The notes beneath the pieces were generated by a model, which made no database searches, was not told the DNA's origin, and was given only the letters and a program-made list of their open reading frames with translations. From assembly GCF_053078305.1 (NCBI RefSeq), contig NZ_CP166879.1: a stretch of DNA of 64,000 nt; one strand, 5' to 3'. Below, in pieces: positions 43,717 to 56,161 of the stretch. Within the stretch, counting starts at the first letter, position 1. Every line of letters starts with the position of its first letter. Made by a program: the position numbers and the translations under genes.

Positions 43717-43728
43717 AAATCGCCTCTG

Positions 43729-44202
43729 TTATTGCCGCCACGGCATGACAGGAACCGCGCTAATCGCGTTTTTCGGCGAACCTTCTACAACTTTGTCGGA
43801 GTAAGCCAGATAAGCGAGCGCGTTGCGTTTGGCGTCATAAAAGCGCACGACCTGTAACGACTTAAAGACCAGGGACGTGCGTTTTTTGAATACTACCTCG
43901 CCCTGAGCTTTGCCGTTTTTAATACGATCCGACAGTTCAATCGGCCCGACTTGCTGACAAGAAATAGCCGCATCGGAGGTATCTTCCGCCAGACCCAATC
44001 CCCCTTTAATACCACCTGTTTTCGCCCGGCTCACATAACAGGTGACATTTTTCACATCGGGATCGTCAAAGGCTTCCACAACAATTTTGTGATCCGGGCC
44101 GATCATTTTAAATACGGTGTCGACCGAACCAATCTCTTCTGCATGAGCCAATGGCCCCAGCATTATCAGGCTTAAAGACAGGATCAAATGCTTGTATTTC
44201 AT
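43729..44202 (-). CDS. creA: CreA family periplasmic protein
   Basis: 157-aa ORF with signal peptide, first gene of creABCD. Confidence 0.92.
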
Positions 44203-44412
44203 ATTGTTACCATTTTTATCTATTACACGAGCAATTAGTTCGTCACGGTAAATAACATATTGATTAAGAACAAAATCTCAATACTTTTATTTCCGTCAAG
44301 ACCTAAAACATACTCTACTAAGAAAAAAACACTGAATGCTAAAACAGCAAAAAATGCTATTATCCAATTACCTGATGTCAGGTGCTCGTTGTTGAAAGGA
44401 TGAGGATATTTT

Positions 44413-45282
44413 ATGGATCAGGCCGGCATTATTCGCGACCTTTTAATCTGGCTGGAAGGTCATCTGGATCAGCCCCTGTCGCTCGACAATGTAGCGGCGA
44501 AAGCAGGTTATTCCAAGTGGCACTTACAGAGAATGTTTAAAGATGTCACTGGCCATGCTATTGGCGCGTATATTCGTGCTCGTCGTTTGTCGAAATCGGC
44601 GGTCGCACTACGCCTGACTGCGCGTCCGATTCTGGACATCGCGCTGCAATACCGCTTCGACTCTCAACAGACATTTACCCGCGCATTCAAGAAGCAGTTT
44701 GCCCAGACTCCTGCACTTTACCGCCGTTCTCCTGAATGGAGCGCCTTTGGTATTCGCCCGCCGCTGCGTCTGGGTGAATTCACCATGCCAGAGCATAAAT
44801 TTGTCACCCTGGAAGATACGCCGCTGATTGGTGTTACCCAGAGCTACTCCTGTTCGCTGGAGCAAATCTCTGATTTCCGCCATGAAATGCGTTATCAGTT
44901 CTGGCACGATTTTCTCGGCAACGCGCCGACCATTCCGCCAGTGCTCTACGGCCTGAATGAAACGCGTCCGAGTCAGGATAAAGACGACGAACAAGAGGTA
45001 TTCTATACCACCGCGTTAGCCCAGGATCAGGCAGATGGCTATGTACTGACGGGGCATCCGGTGATGCTGCAGGGCGGCGAATATGTGATGTTTACCTATG
45101 AAGGTCTGGGAACCGGCGTGCAGGAGTTTATCCTGACGGTATACGGAACGTGCATGCCAATGCTCAACCTGACGCGCCGTAAAGGTCAGGATATTGAGCG
45201 ATACTACCCGGCAGAAGACGCCAAAGCGGGAGATCGCCCAATTAATCTGCGCTGTGAACTGCTGATTCCGATCCGTCGTTAA
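44413..45282 (+). CDS. rob: AraC/XylS-family right-origin-binding regulator
   Basis: 289-aa ORF MDQAGIIRDLLIWLEGHLDQPLSLDNVAAKAGYSKWHLQRMFK... recognised as Rob. Confidence 0.96.
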   Translation: MDQAGIIRDLLIWLEGHLDQPLSLDNVAAKAGYSKWHLQRMFKDVTGHAIGAYIRARRLSKSAVALRLTARPILDIALQYRFDSQQTFTRAFKKQFAQTPALYRRSPEWSAFGIRPPLRLGEFTMPEHKFVTLEDTPLIGVTQSYSCSLEQISDFRHEMRYQFWHDFLGNAPTIPPVLYGLNETRPSQDKDDEQEVFYTTALAQDQADGYVLTGHPVMLQGGEYVMFTYEGLGTGVQEFILTVYGTCMPMLNLTRRKGQDIERYYPAEDAKAGDRPINLRCELLIPIRR

Positions 45283-45926
45283 CGCTGCAGCTCATCTAAT
45301 GCAGGGGCGTCCAGATGCGAGATGTCCCCTGCGGTTTCAACGACCCAGCCAGACGCCAGCCACAGGCTTTCCTGATAATCCACGCGCGAAATAGAACAGT
45401 TACGCAGACGTAAGCGGCGCTCTGCCCATGCTGGTAATCCGAGAATCGTACTCACCAGGCATCCCAGTGCAATACCATGGCTCACCAGCAGCGGTCGGCT
45501 TCCCTGCGGTAAGTCCCGGCAAGATTCCAGAGCCGCATTGACGCGATCGCTGAGCTCCTGCATTGACTCGCCTTCAGGAATACGCCCGTCAACGGTGCCA
45601 TTGACCAGCTGCCGACGCCAGTTCTCTTCTTCTTCGGTCAGAGAATCGATATGTCTTTTTTCCAGCACACCCATGTTTAATTCACGCAGGCGAGAATCAA
45701 AGATGATGTCACAGCCGCAGGCCTGGGCGATGATTTCCGCCGTACGCCGGGTGCGTCCTAAATCGCTACTGATGATATGCGTAATGCCAAGCTCTTTGGC
45801 ACGGGTTGCCACCTGCATCGCCTGTTGCTCACCTTTGGCGGTCAGCGGGCTGTCAGACTGGCCCTGAATACGTCGCTCGGCGTTCCACTGCGTTTCACCG
45901 TGGCGGACAAGGTATACCTGTAACAT
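45279..45926 (-). CDS. gpmB: Probable phosphoglycerate mutase GpmB
   Basis: 215-aa ORF with RHG histidine phosphatase motif (MLQVYLVRHGETQWN). Confidence 0.95.
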   Translation of the reverse strand: MLQVYLVRHGETQWNAERRIQGQSDSPLTAKGEQQAMQVATRAKELGITHIISSDLGRTRRTAEIIAQACGCDIIFDSRLRELNMGVLEKRHIDSLTEEEENWRRQLVNGTVDGRIPEGESMQELSDRVNAALESCRDLPQGSRPLLVSHGIALGCLVSTILGLPAWAERRLRLRNCSISRVDYQESLWLASGWVVETAGDISHLDAPALDELQR

Positions 45927-45965
45927 GCTTTTTTTCCGTATACTGCTGTAACGTTAATTTTCTGA

Positions 45966-46490
<525 letters not shown>

Positions 46491-46494
46491 GCGC

Positions 46495-46978
<484 letters not shown>

Positions 46979-50871: not shown

Positions 50872-50915
50872 GTAAAATGCCGGATGCGGCGCGCCAGCAC
50901 CGCATCCGGTATTAG
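50872..50915. repeat. REP-like palindrome
   Basis: GCCGGATGCGGCGCGCCAGCACCGCATCCGGTA inverted repeat after ettA stop. Confidence 0.55.
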
Positions 50916-51023
50916 TTAAATGATTAGTCCCCGGAAAAAGGCAGAATTTTCTTTTAGTGTATTAGCTCAGATGCGGACTGACATCTCAAATCAAGCGGGA
51001 ACTCATGATTCCCGCTTAACGTT

Positions 51024-51911
51024 CTATTCACCGCGCAGAATCTGGCGGAAATGGGAAACCAACGGACGTTGGTTGGCTTTATGCCAGGCTGCCCATAATT
51101 GCGTTGAATAATTCATCCACGGCAATTCACGTAATACCACCCCTTCCGGCGCATTATGACGCAGACTATGTTGAATTAAGGCCAGACCTAATCCCGCAGC
51201 GACCAGACCTAATGCCGTGAGGGGTTCACCCGCTTCCAGGCGAATATCAGGATTAAACCCGGCGTTAACACAGGCGGCGACAAAATGATCGCGAGAATGC
51301 GCATCGTCGTTATGAATCACCGCAATCCACTGCTCATCGCCAAGTTGTGACGCGACAAGGTTTTCCTCCTGCGCCAGAGGATGATTTTGCGGTAAGGCCA
51401 ACAACATTCGATCATCCAGAACCTGAATATATTCCAGATCCTGCTCGCTGTCGGTGGGCGGCGTATCGACCAGAGAAAAATCGAGACTGCGCTGGCGCAG
51501 GCCTTCAATCTGGGTAGCCGGTGGTTGGCTGTAAAGTGCGATATGCACATTCGGACGCGATACACGTAACGTACGTAGCGCCGTAGAAAGCACACCGGAA
51601 TGCATGGCGTTTTCGATATAGCCAATACACAAGCCACCATCTTCCCCCCGTCCCAGGCGTTTGCCTAACGACTCCAGGCGGTTGGCGTGTGTCAGCAACG
51701 AACGTGTTTCGGCAAGGAATGTCTGTCCATCAGCGGTCAGGCGAATGCGCTGCTGATTACGCTCAAACAGCGTCAGCCCCAGTCGTTCTTCCAGTTGTGC
51801 AATCTGGCGGCTCAGCGGCGATTGCGAGATATGTAATCGCTCGGCTGCGCGTCCCACGTGCTCTTCTTCTGCGACCACCACGAAGTACTTCAGTTGGCGT
51901 AAATCAATCAT
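51024..51911 (-). CDS. LysR-family transcriptional regulator
   Basis: Track ORF 51024..52004; probable start at internal ATG giving MIDLRQLKYFVVVAEEEHVGRAAERLHISQSPLSRQIAQLE (classic LysR HTH); divergent from the oxidoreductase genes. Confidence 0.85.
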   Translation of the reverse strand: MIDLRQLKYFVVVAEEEHVGRAAERLHISQSPLSRQIAQLEERLGLTLFERNQQRIRLTADGQTFLAETRSLLTHANRLESLGKRLGRGEDGGLCIGYIENAMHSGVLSTALRTLRVSRPNVHIALYSQPPATQIEGLRQRSLDFSLVDTPPTDSEQDLEYIQVLDDRMLLALPQNHPLAQEENLVASQLGDEQWIAVIHNDDAHSRDHFVAACVNAGFNPDIRLEAGEPLTALGLVAAGLGLALIQHSLRHNAPEGVVLRELPWMNYSTQLWAAWHKANQRPLVSHFRQILRGE

Positions 51912-52044
51912 GTTAGACCTCAAAGGACTTAAGTCAGACGAATTATGTCCTATCAAGTCACAACCTCGCAAGGTATTGTGATCCACGTCACAGGGCGATA
52001 GCAAAAAAACGCCCTAACCCAAACCGAATAATTGAGGACATCTT

Positions 52045-53055
52045 ATGAGCATTAAAAATTTACTCCCCGGCAAAATTGGCTTAGGCGGCGCACCACTTGG
52101 CAACATGTTCCGTGCCATTCCGGAAGAAGAGGCCCACGCCACCGTGAGCGAAGCCTGGAACCTGGGTGTGCGTTACTTTGATACCGCGCCGCTGTACGGC
52201 TCTGGCCTTTCTGAAATCCGCATGGGTGAAGCGCTGTCTCAGTATCCACGCGATGAATACGTTCTGAGTAGCAAAGTCGGTCGCATCATGCTGGACGAAA
52301 TGGAAGATCCGGCAAAACGGGATTTCGGTGAAAAAGGTGGCCTGTTCGAACACGGCCTGAAAAACAAAATTCTGAATGACTACTCTGCTGACGCCACTCT
52401 GCGCTCGATTGAAGACAGCCTGAAACGCCTGAAAACAGACCGTCTGGATATTGTCTGGATCCACGACCCGGCGCAGGACTTCTACGGTGACAGCTGGCTG
52501 GAGCAGTTCAACATTGCCCGTACCGGTGCATTTCGTGCGCTGACGCGTTTGCGTGACGAAGGTGTGATTAAAGCCTGGGGACTGGGTGTGAACCGCGTCG
52601 AACCTTGCGAACTGACGCTGGCGCTGGACGAACCGAAGCCGGATGCGTTCCTGCTGGCGGGGCGTTATTCCCTGCTGGATCACGAACGTGCGCTGCAACG
52701 CCTGATGCCAGAAGCACTGGAACAGAACGTGGATATCGTTGTGGGCGGTCCATACAGCTCTGGCGTACTGGCAGGCGGCGAGCACTTTGAATATCAGAAA
52801 GCCTCTGCGGCCATCCAGCAGAAAGTGGCGCAAATTAACGCCATTGCCACACGTTTCAATGTGAACGTTAAAGCGGCTGCGCTGCAGTTCGCGCTGGCAA
52901 ACCCGGCCGTTGCAGCGGTTATTCCTGGCTCCAGCCGTCCTGGTCGTATGGCAGAAGATCTGGCTGCACTGAATGCGCCTGTTCCGGCTGAATTCTGGGC
53001 AGAAATGCGCCGTCAAAATCTGGTTGCGGAAAACGCTCCGCTGCCGACCCGTTAA
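52045..53055 (+). CDS. Aldo-keto reductase family oxidoreductase
   Basis: 336-aa ORF with AKR-like GVRYFDTAPLYG and DIVWIHDP motifs; GAGGA ribosome-binding site upstream. Confidence 0.85.
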   Translation: MSIKNLLPGKIGLGGAPLGNMFRAIPEEEAHATVSEAWNLGVRYFDTAPLYGSGLSEIRMGEALSQYPRDEYVLSSKVGRIMLDEMEDPAKRDFGEKGGLFEHGLKNKILNDYSADATLRSIEDSLKRLKTDRLDIVWIHDPAQDFYGDSWLEQFNIARTGAFRALTRLRDEGVIKAWGLGVNRVEPCELTLALDEPKPDAFLLAGRYSLLDHERALQRLMPEALEQNVDIVVGGPYSSGVLAGGEHFEYQKASAAIQQKVAQINAIATRFNVNVKAAALQFALANPAVAAVIPGSSRPGRMAEDLAALNAPVPAEFWAEMRRQNLVAENAPLPTR

Positions 53056-53074
53056 TCAACCAGGTGAGAAAACG

Positions 53075-53872
53075 ATGAAACTGGATCTGACAGGTAAAGT
53101 CGCGGTGGTCAGCGGCTCAACCTCCGGCATTGGGCAGGGTATCGCCGCCGGACTGGCAAAAGCAGGCGCAACGGTGGTTGTCGTCGGCCGTAAACAGAGC
53201 GGCGTTGATGACGCCATGGCTGCGATTGCGGCACAAACTCCCACAGCGTCACTGCGCGGCGTGGTGGCCGATCTCAGCACCGAAGACGGCGTGGCTGCGC
53301 TGATCGCTGCAGTCCCAACGGCTGATGTGCTGGTCAATAATCTGGGCATTTTTAACGATAAAGATTTCTTTAGCGTTCCGGATGATGAGTGGATGCACTT
53401 CTATAACGTCAACGTCCTCTCCGGCGTTCGTCTGGCGCGTCACTATGCGCCAGGCATGACGGAACAGGGCTGGGGGCGGATTATCTTTGTCTCGTCCGAA
53501 TCCGGCGTGGCAATCCCTGGCGACATGATCAACTACGGCGTCACCAAAGCCGCGAATCTGGCGGTTTCTCATGGTCTGGCGAAACGACTGGCGGGGACCG
53601 GTGTGACCGTCAACGCCATTCTGCCAGGGCCAACCTTTACCGATGGCCTGAAAGAGATGCTGGCGGATGCCGCTGCACAATCGGGACGCAGTGCGCGTGA
53701 ACAGGCCGATGAATTTGTTAAAACCTCGCGTCCGAGCTCCATCATCCAGCGTGCGGCAGATGTGGAAGAAGTGGCGAATCTGGCGGTTTATCTCGCGTCA
53801 CCGCTTTCCTCGGCAACCACAGGGGCAGCCCTGCGCGTCGATGGCGGCGTCGTCGACACCCTGACAATGTAA
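53075..53872 (+). CDS. Short-chain dehydrogenase/reductase (SDR) family oxidoreductase
   Basis: Internal start MKLDLTGKVAVVSGSTSGIGQGIA (TGxxxGxG) within track ORF 52973..53872; YGVTKAA catalytic motif; ribosome-binding site present. Confidence 0.85.
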   Translation: MKLDLTGKVAVVSGSTSGIGQGIAAGLAKAGATVVVVGRKQSGVDDAMAAIAAQTPTASLRGVVADLSTEDGVAALIAAVPTADVLVNNLGIFNDKDFFSVPDDEWMHFYNVNVLSGVRLARHYAPGMTEQGWGRIIFVSSESGVAIPGDMINYGVTKAANLAVSHGLAKRLAGTGVTVNAILPGPTFTDGLKEMLADAAAQSGRSAREQADEFVKTSRPSSIIQRAADVEEVANLAVYLASPLSSATTGAALRVDGGVVDTLTM

Positions 53873-53897
53873 CCCTATAAATTAAGAGAAAATTATC

Positions 53898-54314
53898 ATG
53901 GCTAAAACAACTGTATCGATCGAAATTCCGGCTTCTGGCGACGCCGTATGGCAATTGATGGGCGGCTTTGATGCGCTGCCAGACTGGCTACCATTCATCC
54001 CGAAAAGCGTGGTGACAGAAGGCGGTCGCGTTCGTTCGCTGACAACCTCTGACGGCGGCACTGTGGTTGAACGTCTGGAAGCGTTTGATAACCGTCAACG
54101 CAGTTATACCTATTCCATTATTCAGGCACCGTTCCCGGTGGTGGATTACCTCTCCACCATTACCGTTCATGAAACCGCCGACAGCCAGGTTTCCCGTGTG
54201 GAATGGTTCGGTGAATTCACCCCGGTGAATGTGACGAACGAAGAGGCCGAGGCGCTGTTTACCGGCATCTATCGGGATGGACTCAAGGCGCTTAAGGACA
54301 ACTTTGTTGCCTGA
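53898..54314 (+). CDS. Small START/Bet v1-like (SRPBCC-type) protein of unknown function
   Basis: 138-aa ORF 25 nt after the SDR gene; family assignment is tentative. Confidence 0.6.
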   Translation: MAKTTVSIEIPASGDAVWQLMGGFDALPDWLPFIPKSVVTEGGRVRSLTTSDGGTVVERLEAFDNRQRSYTYSIIQAPFPVVDYLSTITVHETADSQVSRVEWFGEFTPVNVTNEEAEALFTGIYRDGLKALKDNFVA

Positions 54315-54471
54315 TGCGATCGACAGGCGTCGGCACGTCCGGCGTCTGATTATTAACAAAAACAGAATAGTCTATTGTCATTTGTATCATTTATGTTATC
54401 AGACAGCAGGCGTATTCTCTCCCCATCGCGTTAATAAACGCCAAACAATTAAGACACTCTGGAATATAAAC

Positions 54472-54684
54472 ATGAAAACGATCATCGCAATTTTTACCGC
54501 TTCTCTTTTCTCTGTCGCGGCGTTTAACGCATCGGCGCAAAGCGTGACAGCAACCGGTACAACACTGGATTCCGCTGAAGCGGTTATTGCGCAGAAAGCG
54601 AAAGAGATGAACGCCTCTGAATACAAAATTACCAGCGCTCGCATGGGCAATACCGTCACCATGAGTGCCGAACTGTATAAATAA
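54472..54684 (+). CDS. Small secreted stress-type protein (YdgH/BhsA/McbA-like, DUF1471)
   Basis: Internal start MKTIIAIFTASLFSVAAFNASAQ (signal peptide) then ...SEYKITSARMGNTVTMSAELYK, characteristic of the family; 70 aa. Confidence 0.7.
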   Translation: MKTIIAIFTASLFSVAAFNASAQSVTATGTTLDSAEAVIAQKAKEMNASEYKITSARMGNTVTMSAELYK

Positions 54685-54732
54685 TCGCGCGAGGAACCCA
54701 TTACGTAATTTGCTAAATATGCGCTGAATGCG

Positions 54733-55039
54733 TTGCCATTAATAAACCGTATTGTACTGCCACCGATGACGCGTTCCCGCGCCGGTGCGGGTGACGTTGC
54801 GATTGGCATGATGGCGGAGTATTACGCGCAGCGCGCCAGTGCTGGACTTATCATCAGCGAAGGTACGCAAATCAGCAGAATCGCTGCGCATAATTTTCCA
54901 CGGCACGCTGATTTACTCCGGTAAATACACCAAAGCGCGCGCCGAACAGGCGCTGGCTAACGGCTGGTCGGATCTGATTGGTTTTGGTCGTCCGTATAGT
55001 GCCAGGAGCGGAAGTTGTCGAAGGGTCATAAAGAGCTAA
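54733..55039 (+). pseudogene. Remnant of an Old Yellow Enzyme-type NADH:flavin oxidoreductase (NemA-like), internally deleted and frameshifted
   Basis: Frame 1 (54733..54924) MPLINRIVLPPMTRSRAG...MAEYYAQRASAGLIISEGTQIS resembles the OYE N-terminus; a second frame (54839..55039) ...GKYTKARAEQALANGWSDLIGFGRPY resembles the OYE C-terminus; the ~300 central residues are missing. Confidence 0.6.
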
Positions 55040-55315
55040 ACCCCGGCATTGCTTCTCAGCTGTTTATAGCCGTTCCTGGGTACAAGTGAGCACTAAGGCG
55101 AGCATTGTTATAATCACCAACCAATCACTAGTTGTGTACAAATTCTGACCGCAAAGCGAACTCTCCGGCATGCAGGTTGGAGAAAGCACAGTTGACCTAA
55201 AATGCTCCTCCAGCCAGAAACAAAAGGTGGCCGATAATTCGAAAGCAAAAAAAGATAAAGCAGGGAATGTGCCCGCAAATTCTTAATCATATAGCCAAAC
55301 CGAGCAGCGTATGAT

Positions 55316-55345
55316 ATCCAGCCCTGATACGGGCTGGATATTAAA
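55316..55345. terminator. Perfect palindromic hairpin
   Basis: ATATCCAGCCC-TGATAC-GGGCTGGATAT followed by TAAATTTTCG; just 3' of the lipoprotein gene stop and at the end of an ORF-free ~300 bp. Confidence 0.4.
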
Positions 55346-55355
55346 TTTTCGCCGG

Positions 55356-55823
55356 TCAGTTATCGCAATGACCTGGCACTGCTAACTTAACTTCAGGTTT
55401 AGAAACGACGCGGATACCTTCGCTTTCGGATACCTGTTCAAGTCCAGCCCCACCAACAAAAACGCCCATTTTGATGTACTGGCGAACAAAGTAGTTTTTC
55501 CCGGACGTGACATTGAGTGTCAGATTATTAGGTGAAAACTCGGATTCAGTTCCCAGCGTATGTGGTTGGCTGGTCGATATTTGCTGATAGAAAAAGACTC
55601 TGTCAGCCGTTTCACCAAGACAACGGCCGTCAAGATAAACATCCTTTTTTAACGCTTTACCAACAAAGCTGTCTCTGTAAACGTATAGACCGGCTTTGCC
55701 ATTTTCCGGGACCGGGAAAGACTTAGCTGTCTCGTTTTCAGCATTACTGCCCAGAGGAACCGACGCACACCCCCCCAGAAGCACTGAGGAAATAATGACT
55801 GCGCCAAATAAAATTTTATTCAT
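55356..55823 (-). CDS. Putative lipoprotein
   Basis: 155-aa ORF with lipobox (VLLGGCAS) after signal peptide. Confidence 0.75.
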   Translation of the reverse strand: MNKILFGAVIISSVLLGGCASVPLGSNAENETAKSFPVPENGKAGLYVYRDSFVGKALKKDVYLDGRCLGETADRVFFYQQISTSQPHTLGTESEFSPNNLTLNVTSGKNYFVRQYIKMGVFVGGAGLEQVSESEGIRVVSKPEVKLAVPGHCDN

Positions 55824-56161
55824 TGAATTCTCATGGAGTTAAGAAAATCGCCAAATGAGAATAAACTTATTTTACACTTATGTCATTAAAGGAGGCATTG
55901 CTTCACAACAACATCAATGTTCATCCCGGAACCGTCCACTTCCGCTTCTCGCTCAAAACGGACTGTCATATTTGATTGCATTCTGGCTACGCAACCGGTC
56001 GGTTGGAGTATGAAGTTGCTCACGAATAGCCTTAGCATCCGCAATTTCGTAGCGGGTCACCCGTACAGGTTCTTTCTAATCTCGACAGCCTCTTCCAGAG
56101 AGGTTTTCAACTCATCAAAAAAACTCATTTTATACCTCGCCTTTGAGCAGTTTCATCACGG

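What the first reader, a model, noticed from the sequence alone, without database searches (positions are those of the whole stretch)
45279..45282. Convergent rob and gpmB share a palindromic TTAA stop
rob (+) ends at 45282 and gpmB (-) ends at 45279, so the two stop codons overlap within a 4-nt TTAA (TAA on each strand). The genes have no intergenic spacer and no room for separate terminators; transcripts must overlap at their 3' ends.
Basis: seen in the sequence. Interest (0 to 1): 0.2.

Follow-up and report, generated by a model that had tools for sequence, protein, structure and literature searches.

The report
Shared TTAA stop of rob and gpmB
Two well-known E. coli genes on opposite strands end in the same four bases (TTAA); this is real and conserved, but it is an ordinary, already catalogued kind of compact gene junction, and the predicted overlap of the two transcripts has already been measured.

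Summary
RefSeq annotates the same overlap in MG1655 and in other E. coli.

- The two transcription units overlap by 300 nt (Conway 2014, cited in Huang 2020).
- A double-stranded RNA cluster cut by RNase III spans the junction.
- A bicyclomycin-sensitive (Rho-dependent) termination region lies about 220 nt past the rob stop, inside gpmB.
- 'ytjC-rob' is one of 165 convergent excludons listed for E. coli (ExcludonFinder 2025).

Four-base stop/stop overlaps (TTAA, CTAA, TTAG, CTAG) are a described class.

New here: 72 of 78 Enterobacteriaceae species keep the 4-nt geometry, and all four allowed tetramers occur. The neighbouring yjjX/trpR junction varies freely across the same loci. Lineages that escaped did so by duplicating the tetramer or by an ERIC insertion flanked by a duplicated stop region. 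A hairpin just after the rob stop shows covariation at synonymous sites.

Verdict: real, conserved, ordinary, already known. Termination of the rob-strand transcript is Rho-dependent and lies inside gpmB. The TTAA itself has no demonstrated role.

The parts
44413..45282 (+). rob (robA) coding sequence, 289 aa, stop TAA at 45280-45282
   Evidence: ORF list. NCBIfam RobA matches 1-289/289. PDB 7vwy and 1d5y. RefSeq annotation.
45279..45926 (-). gpmB (ytjC) coding sequence, 215 aa, stop TAA = reverse complement of 45279-45281
   Evidence: ORF list. NCBIfam GpmB matches 1-215/215. RefSeq annotation.
45279..45282 (.). Shared TTAA tetramer: the 4-nt ORF overlap. The inner TA (45280-45281) belongs to both stop codons.
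   Evidence: Kept as a YTAR tetramer in 74 of 80 loci examined: TTAA 63, CTAG 5, CTAA 4, TTAG 2.
45277..45284 (.). 8-nt palindrome CGTTAACG. It arises because both proteins end in Arg (CGT) followed by TAA.
   Evidence: Octamer counts: CGTTAACG 63, CGCTAGCG 5.
45283..45502 (+). rob 3' untranslated transcript running antisense through the last ~220 nt of gpmB. Published unit end at 45438. Peak of the Rho (bicyclomycin-sensitive) termination region at about 45502.
   Evidence: Conway unit T 4632308 (v2 coordinates), cited in Huang 2020 Table S1d. Adams 2021 Supplementary file 2: 4634221(-), Rho score 5.02, p 3.9e-19. Coordinate map verified. C/G ratio 1.2-1.9. No intrinsic-terminator-like site.
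45138..45278 (-). gpmB 3' untranslated transcript running antisense through the last ~141 nt of rob. Published unit end at 45138.
   Evidence: Conway unit P 4631692 -> T 4632608, cited in Huang 2020 Table S1d. C/G rises to 1.6-2.1 at 45158-45019. No terminator-like site on this strand. How it terminates is inferred, not shown.
44751..45433 (.). Double-stranded RNA cluster (sense/antisense pairing, RNase III products captured by p19) spanning the junction. A highly abundant 21/22-bp duplex lies at 45295-45316.
   Evidence: Huang 2020 Table S1d cluster 299 and Table S3. Sequence of the duplex matched to the window.
45301..45332 (+). Conserved hairpin GCAGGGG-N18-CCCCTGC, starting 19 nt after the rob stop and lying inside gpmB codons AGD...APA. 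Role unknown.
   Evidence: Folding: -20.9 kcal/mol, z -2.9 on the rob strand; -15.9, z -1.8 on the gpmB strand. Conserved in 79 sequences with compensatory changes at the two pairs formed by third-codon positions.
45265..45265 (+). Reported 5' end (Dornenburg 2010) 17 nt before the rob stop, on the rob strand. It is either a weak internal promoter or a processing site.
   Evidence: Huang 2020 Table S1d cites position 4632481(-), 8 reads, -10 match 3/6. RNA start ATTCCGATCCGTCGTTAACG equals window 45265-45284.
44992..45005 (-). Reported antisense TSS inside rob (Thomason 2015) at 44992, with a -10-like TAGAAT at 45005-45000. It helps explain why the dsRNA extends beyond the gpmB 3' end.
   Evidence: Huang 2020 Table S1d. 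Sequence read. Mapping.

Best explanation
This is an ordinary, maximally compact tail-to-tail junction between two independently transcribed genes.

Translation is unaffected, because each stop codon is read on its own mRNA. With no spacer, each RNA polymerase runs past its stop into the antisense strand of the neighbour. Once the ribosome has left at the stop codon, the untranslated, moderately C-rich RNA lets Rho load and terminate within roughly 150-250 nt. The result is about 300 nt of complementary 3' ends that pair and are cut by RNase III.

The TTAA has no signalling role of its own. It persists because it is doubly constrained:
- Any change to the inner TA destroys both stop codons.
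- Only transitions are tolerated at the outer bases. They are synonymous for one gene's final Arg and convert TAA to TAG (or back) for the other gene.
- Indels would alter two conserved C-termini.

Shown: the sequence geometry, its conservation, transcript overlap, dsRNA, and Rho dependence on the rob strand. Inferred: Rho termination on the gpmB strand, and that conservation is passive rather than selected.
For: Geometry and gene identity.

No intrinsic-terminator-like site near the junction on either strand, and no Rfam family there.

Transcript evidence:
- Rho region at MG1655 4634221(-), 'antisense ytjC'. Reads upstream/downstream were 228/49 without bicyclomycin and 164/177 with it; Rho score 5.0, p 3.9e-19.
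- Unit ends at window 45438 and 45138, giving a 300-nt overlap, and a dsRNA cluster at 44751-45433.
- 'ytjC-rob' appears in the E. coli excludon list.
- C/G ratio is above 1 downstream of both stops.

Conservation:
- 72 of 78 Enterobacteriaceae species keep the -4 geometry. All four permitted tetramers occur and none other.
- The neighbouring yjjX/trpR junction takes at least five overlap lengths and many spacer lengths in the same loci.
- Escapes keep both C-termini, either by tetramer duplication or by an ERIC insertion flanked by a duplicated stop region.

The class is known: 58 convergent overlaps in E. coli, and the four tetramers are named.
Against: - No sharp Term-seq 3' end was reported for either gene downstream of its stop, so the exact termination points are not mapped.
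- Rho dependence of the gpmB transcript is not documented.
- The Rho score uses 800-nt windows, so its position is approximate.
- The signal on the rob strand could partly come from the 5' end reported at 45265 rather than from rob read-through.
- The conserved hairpin at 45301-45332 shows covariation. This hints at some selected RNA function that a purely passive model does not explain.
- The published data are from MG1655. The window is another strain, but it is collinear with only 18 substitutions in 3 kb.
Confidence: 0.85

Rival explanations
1. The junction is a selected regulatory excludon. The obligatory 3' overlap makes rob and gpmB expression antagonistic, through transcriptional interference and RNase III cleavage of the duplex, and this is why the arrangement is conserved.
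For: 'ytjC-rob' is listed among the 165 convergent excludons, and that paper reports excludon pairs as more syntenic than other pairs. There is an abundant dsRNA cluster and a very abundant RNase III duplex at 45295-45316. The junction geometry is much more stable than that of the neighbouring pair. The conserved hairpin shows covariation.
Against: No reciprocal expression data for this pair were found. In Huang 2020 Table S2, rob RNA changes only 1.2-fold in the rnc-14 mutant. Double coding constraint explains the conservation without any regulation. Several lineages tolerate an abutting junction or a 135-146-nt ERIC spacer. An excludon listing needs only overlapping coverage.
Confidence: 0.15
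2. Termination is achieved by programmed head-on collisions of converging RNA polymerases at a hairpin. This is the bidirectional-terminator model for convergent gene pairs, with the conserved hairpin at 45301-45332 as the positioning element.
For: The model exists for E. coli convergent pairs and requires a nascent stem-loop. A stable, conserved hairpin lies 19 nt past the rob stop and can form on both strands.
Against: The hairpin lies inside the gpmB ORF, so stopping gpmB-direction polymerases there would truncate the gpmB message. It has no flanking A and U tracts: the downstream sequence is GGUUUC, and in other species often CAUCUC. Mapped unit ends lie 106 nt beyond the hairpin on the rob strand and 141 nt into rob on the other strand. 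Read-through is bicyclomycin-sensitive, which points to Rho. No Term-seq 3' end is reported at the hairpin.
Confidence: 0.07
3. The overlap is a chance or annotation artefact with no real second gene end at this position.
For: The sequence requirement is minimal: any TAA preceded by a pyrimidine reads as a stop on the other strand.
Against: Stop codons are unambiguous. Both proteins match curated full-length family models end to end, and Rob is solved to residue 289. The same ends are found in 78 species.
Confidence: 0.01

Closest known systems
Four-nucleotide convergent (tail-to-tail) stop-codon overlaps: CTAA, TTAA, CTAG, TTAG (Lillo & Krakauer 2007, PMC2174442)
   Same: The geometry is exactly the same: two stops on opposite strands within one YTAR tetramer. 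That paper describes a jump at length 4 in the overlap-length distribution of convergent overlaps, counts 58 convergent overlaps in E. coli, and notes that any terminator must lie inside the partner's coding sequence.
   Different: Nothing structural. Added here are a family-wide survey of this one junction, showing all four tetramers, and the ways lineages have escaped it.
Convergent excludons: overlapping 3' UTR transcription with RNase III processing (Sesto 2013; ExcludonFinder 2025, PMC12288877)
   Same: The two genes have overlapping 3' transcripts and dsRNA that is cut by RNase III. This pair is itself in the published E. coli list.
   Different: Mutually exclusive expression, the functional hallmark of an excludon, has not been shown for this pair. 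The effect of an rnc mutation on rob RNA is about 1.2-fold.
Rho-dependent termination of untranslated 3' read-through running antisense into a neighbouring gene (Peters 2012; Adams 2021, PMC7815308)
   Same: There is a bicyclomycin-sensitive drop in coverage about 220 nt after the stop, classified 'antisense'. That is the largest class (51.5%) of Rho termination regions. The local RNA is C-rich and G-poor.
   Different: Only the rob strand is documented. The gpmB strand is inferred.
Bidirectional intrinsic terminators of convergent gene pairs (Ju 2019; Wang 2022, bioRxiv 10.1101/2022.10.23.513370)
   Same: A convergent pair, with a stem-loop close to the gene boundary.
   Different: There is no intergenic space and no A-tract/U-tract flanks. 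The hairpin is inside gpmB, and the mapped ends lie elsewhere.

Membership tests
4-nt convergent stop/stop overlap (YTAR class) | Two genuine protein-coding genes on opposite strands | tested here: met
   Full-length equivalog matches for RobA and GpmB. Rob PDB entries. RefSeq annotation.
4-nt convergent stop/stop overlap (YTAR class) | Both stop codons lie within one tetramer out of TTAA, CTAA, TTAG, CTAG | tested here: met
   TTAA at 45279-45282. Orthologous loci show only these four tetramers.
4-nt convergent stop/stop overlap (YTAR class) | Same gene ends in orthologous loci, so not a lineage-specific ORF extension | tested here: met
   72 of 78 Enterobacteriaceae species keep the -4 geometry. 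Families outside Enterobacteriaceae were not reached.
Convergent excludon | 3' ends of the two transcripts overlap in vivo | tested here: met
   Met by look-up of published MG1655 data: 300-nt overlap of transcription units, and an excludon listing. No new experiment was possible.
Convergent excludon | The overlap forms dsRNA that RNase III processes | tested here: met
   p19-captured cluster 299 and 21/22-bp duplexes at the junction.
Convergent excludon | Mutually exclusive or antagonistic expression of the two genes | not testable with these tools
   No data for this pair were found. The only hint is a 1.2-fold change of rob RNA in rnc-14.
Rho-dependent terminator | Read-through increases when Rho is inhibited | tested here: met
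   rob strand only: Rho score 5.02, p 3.9e-19 at MG1655 4634221(-). No entry exists for the gpmB strand.
Rho-dependent terminator | Untranslated, C-rich, G-poor RNA upstream of the termination region | tested here: met
   C/G 1.2-1.9 over 45303-45522 on the + strand and 1.6-2.1 over 45158-45019 on the - strand. The enrichment is moderate, not strong.
Rho-dependent terminator | Rho dependence of the gpmB transcript's 3' end | not tested
   No dataset held here reports it. It is inferred from the lack of an intrinsic terminator and from composition.
Bidirectional intrinsic terminator of a convergent pair | GC-rich hairpin flanked by an A tract and a U tract, lying between the two genes | tested here: not met
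   No spacer exists. The terminator scan finds nothing at the junction. The conserved hairpin lacks U and A tracts and is intragenic.

The most novel reading that the evidence does not exclude
The conserved hairpin at 45301-45332, together with the 5' end reported at 45265, could define a short cis-antisense RNA of about 70 nt. It would start in the last codons of rob and end at the hairpin. It, or the rob 3' UTR carrying the same hairpin, would pair with the 3' end of gpmB mRNA and direct RNase III cleavage at the very abundant 45295-45316 duplex. Expression of the phosphatase GpmB would then be tied to the stress regulator Rob across Enterobacteriaceae. On this reading the frozen 4-nt junction is part of a selected antisense module rather than passive compaction.
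Probability: 0.08. Interest if true: 0.35.

Novelty: already known. Interest (0 to 1): 0.1.

Why it matters
It matters little in itself. The overlap is in the reference annotation, its class was described in 2007, and the transcript overlap, the dsRNA and the Rho dependence of the rob strand are all in published genome-wide datasets.

The small additions made here could serve as a clean textbook example of how a shared stop tetramer becomes evolutionarily locked:
- The junction is frozen across a whole bacterial family.
- Only the four permitted tetramers occur.
- Lineages escape only by duplicating the shared stop region.

If the conserved hairpin or the antisense overlap turned out to tune GpmB or Rob levels, that would add one more 3'-end antisense module to a known category. 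It would not open a new one.

Tried and rejected
1. Intrinsic terminators. The consensus scan of 44000-46600 found none at or near the junction on either strand.

2. Known RNA families. Rfam found nothing at the junction. The only matches were REP-like naRNA4 hits in the yjjX/trpR spacer.

3. A structured element downstream of gpmB, inside rob. The E. coli fold is better than shuffles (z -2.4). Across 79 sequences, however, the consensus fold keeps almost nothing, and the two candidate stems show zero compensatory changes, with variation that breaks pairs. Rejected as a conserved structure.

4. Sharp mapped 3' ends. Adams 2021 Term-seq lists none in MG1655 4634200-4634799. Its only rob entry is an internal 3' end 208 nt into the ORF.

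5. Papers and supplements that could not be read. Dar & Sorek 2018 supplements are not held. Ju 2019 and Lybecker 2014 are not held. ExcludonFinder supplements are not held.

6. Reaching beyond Enterobacteriaceae.
- The protein search listed only the best 120, all but one truncated hit at or above 74%.
- Yersiniaceae, Erwiniaceae and similar families were therefore not examined.

7. Literature searches. Two general searches on convergent overlaps returned mostly irrelevant papers.

Full report
**What is there**

The window reads ...CCG ATC CGT CGT TAA CGC TGC AG... at 45270-45290. The mechanical ORF list gives a 289-aa ORF on the + strand at 44413..45282 and a 215-aa ORF on the - strand at 45279..45926.

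The first ORF matches the NCBIfam RobA equivalog over 1-289 of 289 positions. The second matches the GpmB equivalog over 1-215 of 215. Rob has solved structures covering the whole chain.

The rob stop (TAA) is 45280-45282. The gpmB stop is the reverse complement of 45279-45281. The ORFs therefore share TTAA (45279-45282) and the stop codons share the inner TA. Because both proteins end in Arg encoded by CGT, the junction is the 8-nt palindrome CGTTAACG (45277-45284).

RefSeq annotates exactly this overlap in MG1655 (ytjC 4633797..4634444, rob 4634441..4635310) and in the other E. coli genomes inspected. The junction region is present in 5421 of 5426 complete E. coli genomes.

The window is not MG1655. 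It is collinear with MG1655 over 43723-46723 with 18 substitutions and no indels. Published MG1655 coordinates can therefore be transferred exactly.

**Is it unusual?**

No. Lillo & Krakauer (2007, PMC2174442) describe a jump at overlap length 4 for convergent genes. They name the four possible tetramers (CTAA, TTAA, CTAG, TTAG) and count 58 convergent overlaps in E. coli. They also point out that terminators of such genes must lie inside the partner's coding sequence.

In this window, 1 of 9 annotated convergent pairs overlaps. Across the related loci fetched here, the next convergent pair (yjjX/trpR) overlaps in more than half of the species.

**How the transcripts end**

A consensus scan finds no intrinsic-terminator-like site near the junction on either strand. 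Rfam finds nothing there. The published data for MG1655 are as follows.

- *Rho dependence.* Adams et al. 2021 (PMC7815308), Supplementary file 2, list a Rho termination region peaking at 4634221 on the rob strand, classed 'antisense ytjC'. Reads in the 800-nt windows upstream/downstream were 228/49 untreated and 164/177 with bicyclomycin. The Rho score is 5.02 and p is 3.9e-19. This maps to window ~45502, about 220 nt past the rob stop.
- *Transcription units.* Huang et al. 2020 (PMC7373196), Table S1d, cite the units of Conway et al. 2014. rob runs from 4633375 to 4632308 in old coordinates, which is window 44371 to 45438. ytjC runs from 4631692 to 4632608, which is window 46054 to 45138. 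The stated convergent overlap is 300 nt.
- *Double-stranded RNA.* The same table reports p19-captured dsRNA cluster 299 over window 44751-45433. Table S3 lists a very abundant RNase III duplex at window 45295-45316, and I matched its sequence to the window.
- *Excludon list.* ExcludonFinder (2025, PMC12288877) lists 'ytjC-rob' among 165 convergent excludons of MG1655.

The RNA downstream of each stop is moderately C-rich and G-poor, as expected for Rho loading. C/G is 1.2-1.9 on the rob strand and up to 2.1 on the gpmB strand.

Rho dependence of the gpmB transcript is inferred, not shown. Neither gene has a sharp Term-seq 3' end in the dataset I could read.

**Conservation**

One scan of species-representative genomes with Rob returned 80 loci from Enterobacteriaceae, at 75-99% Rob identity. 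For each locus I located Rob and GpmB by tblastn and extended to the stops.

| Result in the 78 loci with both genes | Count |
|---|---|
| Exactly a 4-nt overlap | 72 |
| of which TTAA | 61 |
| of which CTAG | 5 |
| of which CTAA | 4 |
| of which TTAG | 2 |
| Exceptions | 6 |

All four permitted tetramers occur, and no other. This fits the codon logic. The outer bases are the third positions of one gene's Arg codon and of the other gene's stop, so only transitions are silent for both. The inner TA is needed by both stops.

The six exceptions are informative.
- Three loci have abutting stops made by a duplicated tetramer: TTAACTAA, TTAATTAA and CTAGTTAA. They are two Buttiauxella species and Pluralibacter gergoviae.
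- Two Buttiauxella species carry a 135-146-nt insertion. Its core matches the ERIC2 primer sequence at 19 of 22 positions. In L054 it is flanked by a 12-nt direct repeat, TACGTCGTTAAC, which re-creates rob's last codons and stop.
- One Kluyvera assembly keeps the CTAA junction but has a 1-nt deletion in a C run that shifts the gpmB frame.

As a control, the neighbouring yjjX/trpR junction in the same loci takes overlaps of 4, 7, 10, 13 and 14 nt and spacers from 8 to 1095 nt. The stability of the rob/gpmB junction is therefore not just a lack of evolutionary time.

The simplest reading is passive locking by double coding constraint. Selection on the overlap itself is not required.

**A conserved hairpin**

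Nineteen nucleotides after the rob stop lies GCAGGGG-N18-CCCCTGC (45301-45332). On the rob-strand RNA it folds at -20.9 kcal/mol (z -2.9). On the gpmB strand it folds at -15.9 kcal/mol (z -1.8).

Five of its seven pairs are fixed by conserved GpmB residues (AGD...APA). The other two pairs join third-codon positions on both sides, and those two covary. The measures are:
- 96.8% of cells paired, against 93.1 ± 0.4 in shuffles (0 of 500 shuffles reach it).
- 20 double-change cells, against 3.4 (0 of 500).
- 7 further pair types, against 4.2 (5 of 500).

The shuffle control ignores phylogeny, so this is suggestive only. The hairpin lacks a U tract, and no 3' end is reported at it. Its role is unknown.

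By contrast, the candidate stems downstream of gpmB inside rob show no covariation.

**Rivals**

*A selected excludon* is possible. It rests only on overlap, dsRNA and synteny. rob RNA changes 1.2-fold in an rnc mutant, and several lineages tolerate separated stops.

*Collision-based bidirectional termination* fits poorly. The only hairpin is inside gpmB, the mapped ends lie elsewhere, and read-through is bicyclomycin-sensitive.

*An artefact* is excluded.

**Verdict**

The feature is already known and ordinary. The new points are minor: family-wide locking of the tetramer, the escape routes, and a covarying hairpin.

Noticed in passing
window 45301-45332 (+): Hairpin GCAGGGG-N18-CCCCTGC starting 19 nt after the rob stop, inside gpmB. 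It is conserved in 79 Enterobacteriaceae sequences, with compensatory changes at the two pairs formed by synonymous third-codon positions. It is more stable on the rob strand (-20.9 kcal/mol) than on the gpmB strand (-15.9). Function unknown.
   Followed up: partly
L054 3371-3516 and L066 3371-3505 (Buttiauxella): An ERIC-like repeat element is inserted exactly at the rob/gpmB junction. Its core matches the ERIC2 primer at 19 of 22 positions. In L054 a 12-nt direct repeat, TACGTCGTTAAC, flanks it, so both genes keep their C-termini and stops.
   Followed up: partly
L060, L062 and L081 at about 3367-3374: The shared tetramer is duplicated in tandem (TTAACTAA, TTAATTAA, CTAGTTAA). The overlap becomes two abutting stops with a 0-nt spacer.
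   Followed up: yes
L047 at about 3412-3418 (Kluyvera genomosp. 3): A 1-nt deletion in the CCCC run of the hairpin's 3' arm shifts the gpmB frame, so its ORF runs 41 nt into rob. The DNA junction CTAA is intact. This could be a homopolymer assembly error.
   Followed up: no
window 46491-46636 (yjjX/trpR spacer); loci L001-L082: The next convergent pair, yjjX/trpR, is highly plastic. It overlaps by 4, 7, 10, 13 or 14 nt in most genera, but has spacers of 8-1095 nt in others. In this window the 146-nt spacer holds REP-like sequence that matches Rfam naRNA4 just below threshold (57.6 against 59.5 bits at 46558-46629).
   Followed up: partly
window 44621 (+): Adams 2021 Term-seq reports a strong 3' end inside rob, 208 nt after its start codon, in two of the growth-condition tabs. 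It is not Rho-dependent (Rho score 0.65) and its intrinsic-terminator score is 2.3. The local scan shows a weak terminator-like hairpin at 44563-44580.
   Followed up: no
window 44992-45005 (-): A published antisense TSS inside rob (Thomason 2015, cited in Huang 2020) sits 8 nt downstream of a good -10 hexamer, TAGAAT (45005-45000). The window differs from MG1655 at 44991.
   Followed up: partly
window 45265 (+): A published 5' end (Dornenburg 2010; 8 reads; -10 match 3/6) lies 17 nt before the rob stop on the rob strand. It may be a weak internal promoter or a processing site feeding antisense RNA into gpmB.
   Followed up: partly
window 50894-56024: A 5.1-kb segment between ettA and nadR is absent from strain TUM13936, the closest strain compared; from recalled gene order, not checked here, it is also absent from K-12. 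It encodes a LysR regulator, an aldo-keto reductase, a short-chain dehydrogenase, an SRPBCC/polyketide-cyclase-like protein, a YdgH/BhsA-like protein and a DUF2846 protein.
   Followed up: partly
window 13338-19762: By collinearity with TUM13936 (99.6% identity), this stretch carries espX1 and a chaperone-usher fimbrial cluster between rpsT and nhaR. The annotation was transferred, not checked in the window. From recalled K-12 gene order, the window also seems to span the K-12 coordinate origin (thrL side) in reverse orientation.
   Followed up: no
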